Below the pieces are notes generated by a model, which saw only the letters and a list, made by a program, of their open reading frames with translations, did no database searches and was not told the DNA's origin. A DNA stretch of 64,000 nucleotides from Octopus vulgaris (Eukaryota). Position 1 is the stretch's first letter, and every line of letters starts with the position of its first letter. A program made the translations under genes and the position numbers. Shown in pieces: positions 2,438 through 63,357 of the stretch. The stretch lies in NCBI GenBank assembly GCA_951406725.2, contig OX597824.1, positions 95,790,001-95,854,000 of the forward strand, given 5' to 3'.

Positions 2438-2889
2438 GGGATCTTTTCGGTTTGAATGGCAGTTTTTTCTAGCGGTGTCATATGAAATTGTCACCCATAA
2501 TTATGACCCTAGTATCGATCTATTTGCATTTCAATCTGTTTTAGGGCTAGGGTTAGAATTAGGGTTAGTTAGGGTTAGGGTTAGGGGTGGGGGGAAGGGT
2601 ATCTTTTTTTTCTTCACAAATGTAAATAAACCCAATCTGTTTCTTAAACGAGGAACATATTCATACGGCACAGAATGTTTTCACCTCAATAGACGTCATT
2701 GATTGGTTGAAATTGCAGAAATTGTAGAAAAAAAAAAACAACAAATATCTTACAAACTATAGAATTTTCTCAAGAAAGCCAAGAGAAAAAGATGTTTTAT
2801 AAACACATTCTACCAGTATACGAAGTTTAAAAGTGTTTAGTTACGTGGAAATTATTTAAAAAAACTACCGGTCAAACTGAAAAGATCCC
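2438..2889. mobile_element. MITE with ~30-bp imperfect TIRs and 6-bp TSD GAACAG; contains TTAGGG repeats
   Basis: Ends GGGATCTTTTCGGTTTGAATGGCAGTTTTT and AAAAACTACCGGTCAAACTGAAAAGATCCC; GAACAG at 2432-2437 and 2890-2895. Confidence 0.88.
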
Positions 2890-16958: not shown

Positions 16959-17658
16959 GCATTTTTATTTAAAAACATTCTGATGATATCCCTTCAGGAT
17001 CAAACCTTTACCGAAATATGACGTCAATGAAATAGTCTTAATGAGTCCCGGCCCCATCTTAATAATAGTAAGTGTGTAAAATATAATTTAGCTTTCAAAA
17101 TATCTAATCTCACCCCACCCCCACCACCACCACCACCACCAAAAAAAGAAAATGGCGCTGACATTACTTTTTCCTGTTCAGTATGGAACAATGACATTTC
17201 CAGCATAAGTAACCCCTTTCAAAGCTAAATTCAGACGTTTCCAATGCAGACCGGTTTACCTTAAGCCAGTTCCTTCGTGGCATCAATTCCTGCTCCCTAT
17301 GTATTCAGCGATTCGATAGAGTTTAGCAGCAGGCGTCGTTTTCAAGAAAGCCGTCACATTACATCTCTCAGTGCGAACGCATGTGATAGATGGATTTACA
17401 GTATTTTCGCGGAACATGAGAAGCAGAGAATGTCAAAGCTGAGAAAACTGGTCGTGTTTCGTCCCACTTCTTGCTTAATATTCTCCAAAGCATATTTTGA
17501 ATACTCACAGAACATGTGAATTCTGAATATGATATATTTATTAAAGACCTCGCATCACATTAGTTGATATCATGGAATTTATTATTATTTTTTTAATGTT
17601 CGAACACATTTATTTTTTTTATATATAAACTGAAATGTATATGAAAAAAAAAAGCAAA

Positions 17659-18072
17659 GGTGCAGGAGTGGCTGTGTGGTAAGTAGCTTGCCTACCAACC
17701 ACATGGTTCCGGGTTCAGTCCCACTGCGTGGCACCTTGGGCAAGTCTCTTCTTCTATAGCCTCGGGCCGACCAAAGCCTTGTGAGTGGATTTGGTAGACG
17801 GAAACGGAAAGAAGCCCGTCGTATATATGTACATATATATATATGTGTGTGCATGTATATGTGTGTGTGTGTGTGTCTGTTTGTCCCCCTAGCATTGCTT
17901 GACAACCGATGCTGGTGTGTTTATGTCCCCGTCACGGCAAAAAGAGCCCGATAGAATAAGTACTGGGCTTACAAAGAATAAGTCCCGGGGTCGAGTTGCT
18001 CAACTAAAGGCAGTGCTCCAGCATGGCCGCAGTCAAATGACTGAAACAAGTAAAAGAGTAAAAGAGAGAGAG
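17659..18072 (+). mobile_element. SINE family A, full length
   Basis: GGTGCAGGAGTGGCTGTGTGGTAAG head, B-box GGTTCAGTCCC, CORE-like CCTTGGGCAAGT, internal microsatellite, (GTAAAAGA)n tail. Confidence 0.95.
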
Positions 18073-18419
18073 TAAACTGATAATGAGTATTACTTCAAAT
18101 GTTTTTTTTATTTACTAATTGTAAAATGTATCATATTTTTTTACGTTAATCTCTTTATGGCTTTACAGAGTTTATGGCCTTTTGCATGGAGAAGTGTATT
18201 CATAAAACGCCATTTTGATTTTCTCCTTACGCAGAACTAAGCGGAAATCGCCCAGACGAAAAGAGAAATGGAGAATGTGTGCTTATTCATTTGCTTTCCT
18301 CGAGCCCTAGGACTCGCAAGGCCGGTTACCCGGATTTCATGTCGTGTACGTGACTGGGATCACAACGCTACCCCTGAACGGGATGCCGGTCCGTTGCAGG
18401 ATTCAAGGACAGCACTTTT

Positions 18420-26669: not shown

Positions 26670-27082
26670 AGGAGTGGCTGTGTGGTAAGTAACTGACTTA
26701 CCAACCACATGGTTCCGGGTTCAGTACCACTGCGTGGCACCTTGAGCAGGTGTCTTCTACTATAGCCTCAGGCCGACCAAAGCCTTATGAGTGGATTTGG
26801 TAGACGGAAACTGAAAGAAGCCTGTCGTATATATGTATATATATATATATGTGTGTTTGTGTATATGTTTGTGTGTGTGTGTGTTTGTCCCCCCAACATC
26901 GCTTGACAACCGATGCTGGTATGTTTACGTCCCCGTAACTTAGCAGTTCGGCAAAAAGAGACCGATATGATAAGAACTAGGCTTACAAAGAATAAGTCTT
27001 GGGGTCGATATGTGCTCGACTAAAGGCGCTGCTCCAGCATGGCCACAGTCAAATGACTGAAACAAGTAAAAGAGTAAAAGAG
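26670..27082 (+). mobile_element. SINE family A, full length
   Basis: Complete head-to-tail match to 17659. Confidence 0.95.
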
Positions 27083-38964: not shown

Positions 38965-39323
38965 CGGGTTCAGTCCCACTGCGTGGCATCTTGGGCAAGT
39001 GTCTTCTACTATAGCCTCGGGCCAACCAAAGCCTTGTGAGTGGATTTGGTAGACGGAAACTGAAAGAAGCCCGTCGTATATATGTATGTATATATATGTG
39101 TGTGTGAATGTTTGTGTCTGTGTTTGTCCCCCTAGCATTGCTTGACAACCGATGCTGGTGTGTTTACGTCCCCGTCACTTAGCGGTTCGGCAAAAGAGAC
39201 CGATAGAATAAGTACTGGGCTTACAAAGAATAAGTCCCGGGGTCGATTTGCTCGACTAAAAGGTGGTGCTCCAGCATGGCCGCAGTCAAATGACTGAAAC
39301 AAGTAAAAGAGTAAAAAGAGAGA
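38965..39323 (+). mobile_element. SINE family A, 5'-truncated
   Basis: Starts at B-box GGGTTCAGTCCC; intact tail. Confidence 0.93.
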
Positions 39324-40538
39324 GTTTGAATAAGTTTATTTGCCGTTTATTTAAACATGGGCTGAGGGAGTCAACCTTCAAAGAAAATCAAGAATGAAGC
39401 CCCGACAGAGAGCGGGACGGTTATGTCTCATTCTGGTAGCTTCTGTAGCCAGTTACTTACTGCTCGGTTGTCTTAATTCTGTGTCGCCATTGAATAACAG
39501 AAGAGAAAGACGAAAGGGTGAAATCATTTCCTGCACGATTTTACCTCATCTTAAAAATTTAGCGTAAGTGTTGCAGCTTTATATATTTGGAAGCTTTTGG
39601 CCTAAATAAGCCACCTCGGGGCTTACAAAAAGTACTGCTGCCAAATCTGGTCGTCTTCGGAGACATGAAGGACAAAAATGTAATATATTAGAAAGATAAA
39701 AGAGGAATCTGACATTTTGGAGCTGGGTTTTTTTTTTTCATCTGAGAATGAAACGTTTTTTGCTTGTTTTAATTTGTTTCATATAACAACTCTGTAACAT
39801 CCTGTAGTTATTTGCTCCACAACAGAGACAGCTGGAGCGTTGAGGTCGTTAACAGTCACAAGAAAAACAAAATATAGATGCATAAGTGCAATATAGACGA
39901 AAATATTCAAGAAAGTTGGCTGCTTCACAAGTTTTTCCCCGTTTCGCTGTTTACCTGACGTTTGGTATTCGTCATATTTTCTGTGCCTAGGCATTATGTA
40001 CTTTTTGTTGTTGGTGCTATTGCTGTTGTATTATGTTCATAATATATGAAACAGTATCAGTCTTCAGATGAAAAGAAGAATTTTAGATATACTTTGTACA
40101 TTTTTATTGTTAATTTTATTTTATATATATTATGTATTTAGCGAACAATGGCGGCGCCTTTGGTTGTATGTTTAACAGCGGGCCAATGGCTGGTTTTACT
40201 GTATTTGTGATTACTAGAGTAACATGGGAGAGACTGCGCAACTCGAGTAGGTTAAATGCTACAAATTAATTTTCTTTTTAGTTCGATGCACTGGGTTGTC
40301 GCTTATTTTTAGTTCGTATATCTTTCACTGACGCACACATACACACACACATACATCATATATACATACATACATTCACACACGCACACACACAAATATA
40401 AATGTAATTTGGTGTGTATGTGTGTGTGTATGTGTTATATATATACACACACTCACGTATGTGTATGTATGTGCATATATATATATGCATGCGTATCTAT
40501 CTCTATATATATTTGTATGTATATTTATACATATAAAG

Positions 40539-40745
40539 TTAATCCAAACATGAAAACACAAAGAGAAAACACAGCAACGCGAGGACTTGGAAACAAGTAT
40601 AGTGTTATTGGACGCTCAGGAAAGGAAAGAAAGAAGGAGGATTTAACGTTTCGAGCGGAGCTCTTCGTCAGAAACATAGAAAAAGGAAAGATCCAGGGAA
40701 TGGAAGGCGGAGAAAGAAAATCGCCAACGATACACACGCTGTCAA
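40539..40745 (-). mobile_element. ~200-bp Penelope-like terminal-repeat fragment with a minimal hammerhead motif (40641-40675)
   Basis: Minus GTTT-CTGACGA-A-GAGC-TCC-GCTC-GAAA-CGT-T-AAAT; homologous to 52345-52548. Confidence 0.7.
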
Positions 40746-52344: not shown

Positions 52345-52544
52345 TGACCTCGTCTGTATCACTAGCGATTTTTTTCCTCTGTCTTCCCTTCTCAGGATCT
52401 TTCCTTCTCCTATGTTTCCGACGAAGAGCTCCGCTCGAAACGTTAAACCCTCCTTCTTCCCTTCTTTCCTGAGCGTCCAATAATACTTTATTTGTTCCAC
52501 GTCCTTGCGTTGTTGTTTTTTGGTTTTTGTTTTCTTGTTTGGAT

Positions 52545-52548
<4 letters not shown>
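52345..52548 (+). mobile_element. ~200-bp Penelope-like fragment with a minimal hammerhead motif (52414-52448)
   Basis: GTTT-CCGACGA-A-GAGC-TCC-GCTC-GAAA-CGT-T-AAAC; flanked on both sides by (TA)n. Confidence 0.7.
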
Positions 52549-53634: not shown

Positions 53635-53726
<92 letters not shown>

Positions 53727-53730
<4 letters not shown>

Positions 53731-54760
53731 GGGAGAGTTCACGAAAAAAAAAAAACAAGCGACGAAGACAGGTGGTGTACAAACAAACATGTATTAGTAT
53801 AACGCTCAGGAATTGAAAAAGTCTTTTACGTTTCGATCCTACGCTCTTCTACAGAAAAAAACAAGGAGAGAAAAAAAAAAGGAGAGAGAAAAAAATGTGT
53901 GTAGTGGCTACCGATCTATCATGGCGACTATATATATGGGACATGGTATTATCGGATAACACCTGATTTAATGGATAAACTAATCAATGAGCATTGGCCA
54001 AGTGAATAAAGGTTAGGATAATGTTTCTCGAAGGAGCGAGAAGTCTGTGAGGATTGAAAAGGGTACAAACTTCCATGTTTAATAAAATTAGATGGTTTTA
54101 GACGTATTTTTTTAATTCGTCCAATACCGTAAGAAGAGGAAGAGGAATTATACAGGGAACATAAAAGTAAAACATAAAACGTAAAGGATTAGTAAAGACG
54201 GGAGGGGGGAAGTTATCCCTAAGTTTTGGGAATGGGGTTAAAGAAAGACAGGTGTCGCTCAGTTTTCAAACCACTGCATTGGATGCTTTTCCAAGAATTC
54301 CCTGCAGTAGTAGAACTCAAGGTACGAAATATGAGGTATCGGTAATATATATATGTATGTATGTATGTATATATATATATATATAACGGGAAGGTTTACG
54401 AAAATAAACAAAAGACGAAGGCAGGTGGAGTACAAATAAACAAATGTGTTAGTATGGCGCTCAGGAATATAAATAGAACAAGTCTTTTACGTTTCGAGCC
54501 TACGCTCTTCGACAGAAAGACACACAGAAAAGAAACAAGGAGAGAAAAAAATGCGTGTAGGAGCTAACATATATATATATATATATATATAGTTGAAATT
54601 TACAGAAAAACAAAAGATGAAGACAGGTGCATAAACAACAAACAGGTGTATTAGTTTAACGCTCGGGAAGGTGAGAAAATCTTTTACGTTTCGAGCCTAC
54701 GCTCTTCAACAGAAAGGAACACACGAAGAAATAAGCAGAGAGAATAAAAAGTTGTTTGCG
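53727..54760 (-). mobile_element. Three tandem ~170-200-bp hammerhead-bearing repeats (Penelope pLTR or retrozyme-like)
   Basis: Copies at 53727-53930, 54386-54567 and 54590-54750; each has minus TTT-CTGTnGA-A-GAGC-GTAG-G(C/A)TC-GAAA-CGT-A-AAAG; separated by (TA)n. Confidence 0.75.
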
Positions 54761-56930: not shown

Positions 56931-57908
56931 TTTCAAAATTCTTATCTTGTTTTTTCACTCATTAACGTAAGCTGAGCTATGTAAAACATAAGAGAAAGAA
57001 ACATGGTTGTTTTTGTAATAAATGCATCTAAAGTAAAAAAAAATTTCGTGGATCCTTGATATACTACAGTGTGTCCCCTAATTTACTGTTTCGCTTGCGA
57101 GGACGTCCAAAAGTCTTATATGGAACTTCAGGAATAATATAGATCCCGGACGAATTTCACTAGTCTAAGCGTAGAGACGCAACTATGACAGAGAAACGAA
57201 GGCCCTGCTCGCCGGCAGCTAACCTTCTCATCCTACTTATAAAAGTAAATATCTGCACGCTGGCAAACGCACAAATATACATACCTAACTCTAGCATAGC
57301 TTGCCTCTCCGCCATGCTATGGCAGCCGATCTATAAACGCTTATCTCTTTCAGCAAACTTCAATCTATTTCTAGAACTGCTAGCTTTACCTGAGGGCTGT
57401 GTAAATAGCTCTTCCGATGTTAACTTTAAAATGTATCTCTTTCCACATTCTGGCGCCTGATTAACTGCTGGCTTCTTGATAGGAATGCCAAGAAGGATGA
57501 ATTGTAGCGCTTGTATTTAGCCTGAACACAGCGTCTAATGAGAACATTCATCATAATATCTTTCACGTTTCATATCAAAGATTGCAGCCGACCCCACTTG
57601 CACTTCTAGTGATCATTGAAAATGATACGCCTCATACACACATACATATACACGCAGATAGACACATACACAAACACACATGTATATATATAGTCATACA
57701 CACAAACACGCGCATATATATATATATATAAACTCCAAGAAAGTTAGGGGTTGTGGGTCCAACCCACTAAGGGATAACATCTATCCAATATACTGTAGGT
57801 AAAATACCCAATTAATTAATACACAAGTGTTTTTTTAAAGCATTGCAATTAACTTACCTAGTGTATTAAATGGGTGAAGGTAAAGAGATATTTTACCATT
57901 AATTTATA

Positions 57909-58306
57909 GGCGCAGGAGTGGCTGTGTGGTAAGTAGCTTGCTAACCAACCACATGGTTCCGGGTTCAGTCCTACTGCGTGGCATCTTGGGCAAGTGTCTT
58001 CTGCTATAGCCCCGGGCCGACCAATGCCTTGTGAGTGAATTTGGTAGACGGAAACTGAAAGAAGCCTGTCGTATATATGTATGTGTGTGTATGTGTTTGT
58101 CCCCCTAGCATTGCTTGACAACCGATGCTGGTGTGTTTACGTCCCCGTCACTTAGCGGTTCGGCAAAAGAGACCGATAGAATAAGTACTGGGCTTACAAA
58201 GAATAAGTCCCGGGGTCGATTTTCTCGACTAAAAAAAAAGGCGGTGCTCCAGCATGGCCGCAGTCAAATGACTGAAACAAGTAAAAGAGTAAAAGAGTAA
58301 AAGAGT
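57909..58306 (+). mobile_element. SINE family A, full length and young-looking
   Basis: Complete match; (GTAAAAGA)3 tail. Confidence 0.95.
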
Positions 58307-58309
58307 ATT

Positions 58310-58499
58310 GCAAATAAGAAAATGGAGGAGGACAATAGTTGGTTCATCAACTTTAGGACATTAAAAATGTTAACTTAGAATAATATGCTATATGTATGTT
58401 TGTTATTATAATTATTAGTTTAATAAATAAATAAGTTAACATTTTTAATGTCCTAAAGTTGATGAACCAACTATTGTTCTCCTCCATTTTCTTATTTGC
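58310..58499. repeat. 68-bp-arm inverted repeat with a 54-nt AT-rich spacer
   Basis: Arms 58310-58377 and 58432-58499; one G-T mismatch. Confidence 0.95.
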
Positions 58500-58514
58500 T
58501 ATATATATATATAT

Positions 58515-58702
58515 TTTTTTTTTTCTCTCTCTTTCTTTCTGTGTTTCTTCTCTGTGTATCTTTCTGTTGAAGAGCGTAGGCTCGAAACGTTAAAGACTTG
58601 TTTTATTTATATTTCCTGAGCGCCATACTAATACAATTGTTTGTTTGTATTCCACCTGCCTTCGTCATTTGTTTATTTCCGTAAAGCTTCTTTCCGTTCC
58701 CG
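58515..58702 (+). mobile_element. Hammerhead-bearing repeat, same subfamily as 54386-54567 (motif 58559-58596)
   Basis: TCTTT-CTGTTGA-A-GAGC-GTAG-GCTC-GAAA-CGT-T-AAAGA; (TA)n on both sides. Confidence 0.72.
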
Positions 58703-58766
<64 letters not shown>

Positions 58767-59273: not shown

Positions 59274-59660
59274 TACCATAAAATTATCAACCATCGTACA
59301 AACAATAACTCTGAGCCCCTTTTCAAACTCTACCTGTCTATCACCCGTGGACATGTTTACAAAGTCAGAAAACAGCACAGCTCCCATGACTTCAGGAAAC
59401 ATTTTTTCACGCTAAGAGTTGGTGAAGCATGGAACAAACTGCCGGCATCAGTTGTTAGTTGTCGGAGCACTGCATTCTTCAAAACTTCCATGCTTCCTGA
59501 GATTCGCCAACACTACACCTGATTTTCTCCCCTCCATACACACACAAGCATGTATCTGACTCATACACTGTTCGTTTTCCAGACATTTGTACATTACTGT
59601 ATATGCTTTATACGCACTTTTGACAAATTGTGGTGCACCTGAGCACTGTACACAATAATT

Positions 59661-62647: not shown

Positions 62648-63357
62648 GCCTAGACAGCATTTCGTCCTCGTTTTCAGCTCGATCAGTGTTAAACTGGGGT
62701 TAAACAACAGCAGCAACATTGCAGTCTTTCAGTTTTAGCAAAGTACATTTTATTCAGATAAAGTTCACAAAATGGAATAAATTATTTATGACGAGGGAAA
62801 AAGTAGGTGTCTAGCATTTCGGGCGGAACCTTTTCGTCGGAGAAAAACGAGTTGTTTACCGATATTGGATAAATAAGTTAAGGGTAGCGAGAGGGAGAGA
62901 GGGAAAAAATTAGTAGCGAAGAATAAGAGGGGGAGGAAAAAGGGGAGGTAATAAGGGAAAACAATTGTTAGTTGAATACAAAGGTCAAAGCGTGGTGAAT
63001 ATCAACAGAATCTCTTTCCGTCTTCTGCTCGCCCCCACCCCCACCCCCCGGGCCTGTCACAGTTAACAGCTCGTAACTAACTGCTCGACCCCCATTTGTG
63101 TGATTATTACAAGCCATGCTGAAGGCTGCTGTACGATGTTTTACATGTCCCTGTCATTCCACCTGCCAGCCAAACCGACCATCAAGCCAGTAAGGGAGCC
63201 TCTACGTGGTCACACGAATTGCTAGAAATATTAGCCAATTTTTTTCTCAACTGTGTCAATGAAACCGGGAAACCGGCCCTTATGAGCCACGCAAGGCTCG
63301 AGAAGGAACAAACAACGACATAAAAAAGACTGGATCTCTAGACCGAAATCTAGATAG

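What the first reader, a model, noticed from the sequence alone, without database searches (positions are those of the whole stretch)
53727..54760. Tandem minimal-hammerhead repeats that could excise a ~197-nt RNA (retrozyme-like unit)
Seen: three same-orientation (minus) repeats, each with a hammerhead-like core at 53821-53857, 54482-54521 and 54681-54716. The best copy reads GUCUUU-CUGUCGA-A-GAGC(GUAG)GCUC-GAAA-CGU-A/AAAGAC, with a perfect 6-bp stem I, a 4-bp stem II and the palindrome ACGU in place of stem III. Predicted cuts after 54685, 54488 and 53827 would release 197-nt and 661-nt pieces; the longer piece spans a ~410-bp unique interior between two repeats. Established: Penelope-like elements carry minimal type I hammerheads with palindromic stem III that cleave as dimers, and tandem hammerhead repeats (non-LTR retrozymes) yield small circular RNAs in several animals. 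Inference: adjacent copies could dimerise in cis, making this a non-autonomous self-cleaving repeat system. All three copies have U at the normally conserved A6 plus an extra A after A9, which may be a lineage-specific core variant.
Basis: partly seen in the sequence, partly recalled or inferred. Interest (0 to 1): 0.8.

Follow-up and report, generated by a model that had tools for sequence, protein, structure and literature searches.

The report
Dispersed Penelope-type hammerhead with U6 core
The three neighbouring repeats are likely separate insertions of a very abundant ~200-base tail of a likely Penelope-type jumping gene, not one circle-making unit, and every copy seen carries a hammerhead-ribozyme motif with U at a normally fixed A, a change predicted to weaken RNA self-cutting that nobody has tested.

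Summary
The three motifs, cut sites and 197/661-nt arithmetic are correct. The retrozyme reading is not supported. Adjacent copies A and B are the least alike pair (67.5%). B is 88% identical to a solo copy D, 4 kb away on the other strand; 24 sites split AC|BD against 5 for AB|CD. In DNA contigs of three organisms the motif has about 10^5 times single-copy depth, while most of the 410-bp interior is at single-copy depth. All six intact units in the window end in (TA)n 93-112 nt past the cut site. The closest public motif is the coral Neptune PLE hammerhead, which lies ~100 nt behind a GIY-YIG ORF whose full-length relatives carry RT. No such ORF was found in this window. So these are most likely independently inserted 3' ends of a Penelope-like element. 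The extra A after A9 is the published PLE consensus. U6 is real and family-level: 4 of 4 copies, against 1 of 131 in the outgroup and 0 of 56 published motifs. Published data predict weak cleavage. The motif nevertheless stays conserved between subfamilies. Activity is untested.

The parts
54592..54760 (-). Copy A (subfamily AC): U-rich leader, minimal hammerhead motif (C3 54712, residue 17 at 54685, N7=U), 93-nt tail; 5' boundary not determined
54569..54591 (.). (TA)n run between A and B; end of A and 5' flank of B; inferred insertion target
54386..54568 (-). Copy B (subfamily BD): best-formed motif (C3 54515, residue 17 at 54488, N7=C, 6-bp stem I), 102-nt tail
54345..54385 (.). (TA)n/(CATA)n microsatellite after B
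53942..54344 (.). Interior: single-copy depth in DNA runs of organisms A, B and E (53942-54340 laid), with a low-copy patch at 54042-54101; no Pfam family below E 0.88 in six frames; inferred host DNA
53728..53941 (-). Copy C (subfamily AC): longer 5' end (53902-53941 at ~340-790-fold single-copy depth), motif C3 53854, residue 17 at 53827, N7=A, stem II mismatch at 53837, 99-nt tail
53658..53727 (.). (TA)35 after copy C
58512..58703 (+). Copy D (subfamily BD), solo, opposite strand, between (TA)n runs; C3 58564, residue 17 at 58591 (U), N7=U, U6
40536..40744 (-). Copy E of a sister family (55-60% to A-D) with canonical CUGACGA core; C3 40671
52346..52548 (+). Copy F of the sister family, A6 but C at position 4; C3 52418; (TA)n on both sides

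Best explanation
The three repeats are likely independent insertions of the ~200-bp 3' end (pseudo-LTR) of a very high-copy, probably Neptune-type Penelope-like retroelement family into (TA)n microsatellites, and each carries a minimal hammerhead motif with U at position 6 that is predicted to cleave weakly at best. Shown: the motifs, the subfamily split, the dispersed high depth, the single-copy interior, the common 3' end at (TA)n, and the same motif architecture behind a GIY-YIG ORF in outgroup elements. Inferred: an element-encoded RT-endonuclease nicks AT-rich DNA and reverse-transcribes from ~100 nt downstream of the hammerhead, usually stopping early, so short 3' stubs accumulate. Each stub leaves (TA)n beside it, which invites the next insertion and produces chance neighbours such as A-B. 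The hammerhead served, if at all, in the parent element's multimeric RNA as a dimer, probably with protein help. The U6 change arose in a master element before the AC and BD subfamilies split.
For: Pairwise identity A-B 67.5%, B-D 88%, A-C 74%; informative sites AC|BD 24, AB|CD 5, AD|BC 1. Summed contig depth over the motif 4.38M/4.35M/1.54M against 36-53/31/27 over the interior in DNA runs X1/X4/X13, ratios 0.6-1.4 x 10^5 (the tool warns this is no copy number). 6 of 6 intact units end in (TA)n 93-112 nt after the cut site; (TA)5+ runs cover 1578 of 64000 bases. A relaxed motif retrieved 121 metagenome loci whose commonest motif equals the Acropora digitifera Neptune hammerhead of PMC4209133 Fig. 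S3. In L017 an ORF ends ~100 nt before C3; 13 of 121 loci hold that ORF by tblastn; its full-length relatives carry RT (PF00078) and GIY-YIG (PF01541) and a CX4CxxC linker. Outgroup units share a median 75 nt (90th percentile 133) downstream and are mostly short upstream. Literature passages: PLEs tend to insert into or next to earlier copies (PMC6765202); Neptune-type microsatellite bias (PMC8557442); PAc cuts AT-rich DNA and starts RT 111-118 nt into the ORF, ~85-92 nt past its hammerhead cut (PMC11167929). Motif conserved between subfamilies: 0 of 40 against 16 of 115 diagnostic substitutions, p=0.012.
Against: No RT or GIY-YIG remnant in the window by tblastn with 12 PLE proteins or by their profile (best E 0.063), so the link of this family to an autonomous PLE is by architecture only. 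Similarity to the coral element is confined to the motif: its nucleotide profile hits only E and F cores. The outgroup units are not beside (TA)n (0 of 94). Three copies within 1 kb is denser than uniform insertion would give. No genome was held, so the family consensus rests on four copies.
Confidence: 0.8

Rival explanations
1. A non-LTR retrozyme-like tandem unit: A, B and C dimerise in cis, self-cleave and release a 197-nt (and 661-nt) RNA that circularises and is re-inserted.
For: TRF calls 54368-54741 a 1.9-copy array of period 202. Hybrid stems I of 4 and 6 bp and a 4-bp shared stem III can be drawn for A+B. Retrozymes are proposed to derive from PLE pseudo-LTRs (bioRxiv 10.64898/2026.07.22.740005, parts 1-3 read).
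Against: A and B are the most divergent pair and of different subfamilies. The 197-nt piece is a chimera of A's tail, a (TA)n run and B's head. Its circular fold is modest: -25.1 against shuffles -19.2 +/- 3.4 kcal/mol, 52% paired. The best fold holding the dimer is -28.4 against an MFE of -45.4, with stem II and III pair probabilities <=0.004 (tertiary energy not modelled). The interior is single-copy. Described retrozymes carry canonical type I hammerheads (PMC7229834); 8 of 9 predicted Xenopus dimers did not cleave.
Confidence: 0.07
2. A self-standing non-autonomous, SINE-like element derived from a PLE pseudo-LTR, copied as a ~200-nt unit by a PLE enzyme in trans, rather than truncated copies of the autonomous element.
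For: Very high depth of the short unit against ~340-790-fold for the 40 bp further upstream in C. E and F share one 5' boundary and lie between (TA)-rich runs. No ORF remnant nearby.
Against: 5' ends of A, B, C and D differ, as expected of truncation. Outgroup PLE copies are likewise mostly short stubs. Depth upstream of C depends on likeness to C.
Confidence: 0.25
3. The U6 motif is catalytically dead. It is conserved for another reason (protein binding, promoter or splice signal, or slow drift in few master copies) and hitch-hiked to high copy because cleavage is dispensable for transposition. This is compatible with the best explanation.
For: CUGA-turn single mutants had low activity (PMC9901934, passages). 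A natural A6C variant has kobs <0.1/min (PMC3088659, passages). PAc hammerhead mutants still insert in vitro (PMC11167929, passages). Sister copies F and G have another U-turn change, C4.
Against: Among A-D the only core positions that vary are the tolerant ones, N7 (U, C, A, U) and residue 17 (A, U). No subfamily-diagnostic change falls in the 40-nt motif. Stem I covaries across the three families: 3 of 4 pairs with two-sided change, 0 of 500 shuffles reach the score, though the sequences are related.
Confidence: 0.5

Closest known systems
Minimal type I hammerhead of Neptune PLEs, Acropora digitifera entry (Cervera and De la Pena 2014, PMC4209133, Fig. S3 and Table S1)
   Same: Short stem I, extra nucleotide after A9, 4-bp stem II closed by G10.1-C11.1 with 3' strand GCUC and a 4-nt loop, GAAA-C-G-U-H with palindromic 15.2/16.2, U-rich leader; in outgroup loci it lies ~100 nt behind the GIY-YIG ORF.
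   Different: U instead of A at position 6 in 4 of 4 copies (0 of 56 entries in Fig. S3, whose search required the box; 1 of 131 outgroup matches). Different stem I and loop II sequence. (TA)n-bounded. No parent ORF found. Depth suggests ~10^5 copies against hundreds to thousands reported per genome there.
Non-LTR retrozymes (Cervera and De la Pena 2020, PMC7229834; Li et al., bioRxiv 2026)
   Same: ~200-bp, low-GC, non-coding unit with a type I hammerhead; two units adjacent; probable PLE kinship.
   Different: Neighbours are not copies of each other, the hammerhead is minimal and non-consensus, the predicted circle is not strongly self-paired, other copies are solo, and no circular RNA is shown.
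Natural hammerhead core variants (Perreault et al. 2011, PMC3088659), e.g. A6C of phage Bcep176
   Same: Substitution at position 6 of the CUGA turn in an otherwise intact motif.
   Different: U rather than C; shared by all seen copies of an abundant animal repeat family rather than a single phage locus; minimal dimer-type scaffold; activity unmeasured.

Membership tests
PLE-associated minimal type I hammerhead | CUGANGA box | tested here: not met
   U6 in A, B, C and D; sister copy E meets it
PLE-associated minimal type I hammerhead | Extra nucleotide between 9 and 10.1, and G10.1-C11.1 pair | tested here: met
   6 of 6 units; consensus CUGANGAH in PMC4209133 Fig. S3
PLE-associated minimal type I hammerhead | GAAA-N-N'-U-H with palindromic stem III region | tested here: met
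   GAAACGU(A/U) in 6 of 6 units
PLE-associated minimal type I hammerhead | Stems I and II pair and covary | tested here: met
   92% of cells paired, 3 of 4 stem I pairs with two-sided change across three families (11 sequences, 5 chosen from 131 outgroup matches). Within the six window units alone covariation is not above shuffles (36 of 500)
PLE-associated minimal type I hammerhead | Self-cleavage as a dimer | not testable with these tools
   Needs an in vitro assay; only contigs were available
Penelope-like element (Neptune type) | RT + GIY-YIG ORF upstream of the hammerhead-bearing repeat | tested here: not met
   No remnant in the window; present upstream of the outgroup motif
Penelope-like element (Neptune type) | Common 3' end downstream of the hammerhead and variable 5' truncation | tested here: met
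   3' ends 93-112 nt past residue 17 in 6 of 6; 5' ends differ among A-D
Penelope-like element (Neptune type) | Dispersed, microsatellite-associated insertions | tested here: met
   (TA)n at the 3' end of 6 of 6 units; ~10^5-fold depth
Non-LTR retrozyme | Head-to-tail array of near-identical monomers | tested here: not met
   A-B 67.5% against B-D 88%; AC|BD split; TRF still reports a 1.9-copy array at 78% matches
Non-LTR retrozyme | Canonical, efficiently cleaving type I hammerhead | tested here: not met
   Minimal motif with U6; no Rfam hammerhead match. Cleavage itself untested
Non-LTR retrozyme | Monomer folds into a highly self-paired circle | tested here: inconclusive
   -25.1 against -19.2 +/- 3.4 kcal/mol, 52% paired
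Non-LTR retrozyme | Abundant circular and linear monomer RNA in tissue | not testable with these tools
   No run on record as RNA and no raw reads
Non-LTR retrozyme | Target-site duplication around the array | not tested
   Flanks are microsatellites, which hide a duplication

The most novel reading that the evidence does not exclude
The U6 minimal hammerhead is an active natural core variant, kept under selection in a PLE lineage (perhaps rescued by the PLE protein) and present at roughly 10^5 copies in this genome and its relatives. Searches that demand CUGANGA would have missed it, which would make it among the largest hidden ribozyme families in an animal genome, with chance neighbours such as A-B able to cut host transcripts.
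Probability: 0.25. Interest if true: 0.65.

Novelty: new variant of a known kind. Interest (0 to 1): 0.38.

Why it matters
A6 is treated as near-invariant and is written into the descriptors used to count hammerheads in genomes. A family with U6 in every copy seen, with the rest of the motif conserved, is a natural experiment on the open question of what PLE hammerheads do. If it cleaves, the core consensus and genome-wide counts need widening. If it does not, a PLE-derived family reached very high copy number without a working ribozyme, in line with in vitro data that cleavage is dispensable. The local three-copy cluster itself is ordinary.

Tried and rejected
Whole genome: none held. The exact family motif was not found in metagenome or viral contigs, nor the relaxed motif in viral contigs. 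Reading position 6 family-wide from laid contigs failed: records were cut at 53855 beside a skipped repeat, so 53851 sits at their edge, and C's private stem II change at 53837 was not listed either, so that table gives no frequencies. Reading it from spurious translations failed: no homologue. RNA: no RNA holder is on record. Run X10, guessed to be RNA, holds the repeat at high depth with no cover over most of the interior and no joints; contigs cannot show ends or strand and the A-B junction was not in the stretch laid, so this counts neither way. Interior as PLE coding remnant: rejected. Pfam and PDB did not recognise the outgroup endonuclease fragment; homologue and Atlas searches did. No covariance model was built; a profile HMM was used instead. 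A Pfam scan of 14 ORFs, mostly near the copies, found nothing above a curated cut-off; the whole window was not scanned against Pfam. Earlier findings of this scan: none in three look-ups. Print searches that showed no report of a U6 PLE hammerhead or a cephalopod family: (listings only, plus the passages cited). Lunse et al. 2017 (RNA Biol 14:1499), the most likely place for such a variant, is not held and was not read; Repbase and Dfam could not be searched; supplements of the bioRxiv preprint are closed.

Full report
Observation. B has a 6-bp stem I and a 4-bp stem II. A has a 4-bp stem I. C has a mismatch in stem II. They are far beyond chance. Rfam has no match. The window holds more than was reported: a fourth family copy D at 58564-58591 on the + strand, two copies of a sister family with A6 (E, F) and a degenerate seventh, G. 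The host is a microsatellite-rich eukaryote. From recall its repeats look cephalopod, but no call established this; run labels are coded and no genome is held.

The cluster is not a tandem amplification. A and B, the adjacent pair, are 67.5% identical. B and the solo copy D are 88% identical, A and C 74%. Informative sites favour AC|BD 24 to 5 to 1. All six intact units end in (TA)n 93-112 nt beyond residue 17, although (TA)5+ runs cover 2.5% of the window; A's terminal run is B's 5' flank. I laid contigs of four of the 24 listed runs on 53762-54340. In the three DNA runs (organisms A, B, E) summed depth over the motif is 4.38M, 4.35M and 1.54M against 36-53, 31 and 27 over the interior, ratios of 0.6-1.4 x 10^5. 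The tool warns that this is no copy number, but four copies in 64 kb point to the same kind of abundance. The interior lies on long single contigs in organisms B and E, so it is most likely orthologous host DNA. Only 53902-53941, next to C, is repetitive (~340-790-fold) and is read as C's longer 5' end. The 661-nt piece would thus be mostly host sequence, and the 197-nt piece a chimera of two subfamilies around a microsatellite. Its circular fold is modest (-25.1 against -19.2 +/- 3.4). In a nearest-neighbour model the A+B transcript prefers a fold at -45.4 kcal/mol over the best fold containing the dimer at -28.4; that model omits tertiary energy and protein help.

What the unit resembles. 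The exact motif is absent from metagenome and viral contigs. A relaxed motif with positions 6, 7 and loop II free gave 121 loci, from 3 of 64 parts of the collection, about 3500 estimated. Their commonest form equals the Acropora digitifera Neptune PLE hammerhead in Fig. S3 of PMC4209133. Upstream of the longest copies lies an ORF ending ~100 nt before C3, found in 13 of 121 loci. Pfam and PDB did not recognise the fragment. Its 257 longer homologues include proteins with RT (PF00078) and GIY-YIG (PF01541), one named from A. digitifera; the Atlas agrees, and P0107 has the CX4CxxC linker of Neptune elements (linker described in PMC8557442, passages). Outgroup units are mostly short upstream and share a median 75 nt downstream, the same stub architecture. 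Against a direct link: similarity is confined to the motif, the outgroup is not beside (TA)n (0 of 94), and no PLE coding remnant lies in this window. I therefore call the units PLE-derived by inference, not members by test.

Mechanism. Most likely a Neptune-type RT-endonuclease nicks AT-rich DNA and starts reverse transcription about 100 nt downstream of the hammerhead, as shown for the anole element PAc (PMC11167929, passages), and usually stops early. Short 3' stubs then accumulate in (TA)n, including the (TA)n beside earlier stubs. PLEs are described as inserting into or beside earlier copies (PMC6765202, passages). These steps are inferred. Whether the stubs are truncated autonomous copies or a SINE-like derivative is open.

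The core. The extra A after A9 is not lineage-specific: a nucleotide between 9 and 10.1 is listed as a conserved feature and the consensus is CUGANGAH (PMC4209133, main text parts 1-2 of 4 and supplement parts 1-2 of 3). U6 is the real oddity: 4 of 4 copies across two subfamilies, against 1 of 131 outgroup matches (Fisher p 4e-7, copies not independent) and 0 of 56 published motifs, whose search was biased towards the canonical box. The 40-nt motif is more conserved than its flanks: 33 of 40 against 59 of 115 invariant columns among A-D (p 0.0006), and 0 of 40 against 16 of 115 subfamily-diagnostic changes (p 0.012). Core variation falls on the tolerant positions N7 and 17. Stem I covaries across the three families but not significantly within the six window units. 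Against activity: single mutants of the CUGA turn had low activity (PMC9901934, passages; no A6U value seen), a natural A6C variant cleaves at under 0.1 per minute (PMC3088659, passages), canonical minimal motifs are already slow as dimers (PMC4209133), and sister copies F and G carry a second U-turn change. PAc's hammerhead cleaves only with its protein and is dispensable for insertion in vitro (PMC11167929). Two attempts to read position 6 family-wide failed, so the claim rests on four copies. There is no evidence on transcription strand, cleavage or circles.

Comparison and verdict. It works like, and probably descends from, the minimal hammerhead in PLE pseudo-LTRs, but fails the CUGANGA box. 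It fails the retrozyme tests that could be run (homogeneous array, canonical hammerhead; PMC7229834, part 2 of 6 and passages; bioRxiv 10.64898/2026.07.22.740005, parts 1-3 of 5). I saw no report of a U6 family in the searches. Passages of PMC13282606 note Penelope-like expansions in an octopus without mentioning ribozymes, and PMC6962438 counts 235 hammerhead-1 matches in a squid. Lunse et al. 2017 could not be read and may already list such variants. The cluster is ordinary. The abundant U6 variant is a modest, testable novelty: new variant of a known kind, interest 0.38.

Noticed in passing
window 40536-40744 (-) and 52346-52548 (+): Sister hammerhead-bearing repeat family (88% to each other, 55-60% to A-D) with A6, a 3-nt loop II and a shared 5' boundary; F has C at position 4.
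   Followed up: partly
window 62794-62843 (-): Degenerate third-type hammerhead-like copy with C at position 4 and a different stem I (profile E 0.001).
   Followed up: no
window 58310-58499: Near-perfect ~68-bp inverted repeat with an AT-rich ~55-bp spacer directly upstream of copy D; MITE-like hairpin or inverted insertion scar.
   Followed up: no
window 17658-18074, 26670-27082, 38965-39316, 57908-58307 and others: A ~400-bp dispersed SINE-like repeat with more than ten copies or fragments in the window.
   Followed up: no
window 59350-59500 (+): Translation resembles the C-terminal end of a CR1/L2-type LINE ORF (recalled; no Pfam match).
   Followed up: partly
window 54042-54101: Small patch of the interior at about ten times single-copy depth in all three DNA runs.
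   Followed up: no
window 53955 (run X13, record 24): In organism E the orthologous interior contig stops aligning near 53955 with ~50 letters left over, a weak hint that copy C is absent or different there.
   Followed up: no
L001, L021, L023, L055, L058, L059, L063, L091, L110, L111: Ten of 121 outgroup loci hold two motif matches; in the seven listed they are inverted and about 40 nt apart, like PLE inverted insertions. L091 has the single sporadic U6 match.
   Followed up: partly
window 2541-2586: Eight degenerate TTAGGG units far from any evident end.
   Followed up: no
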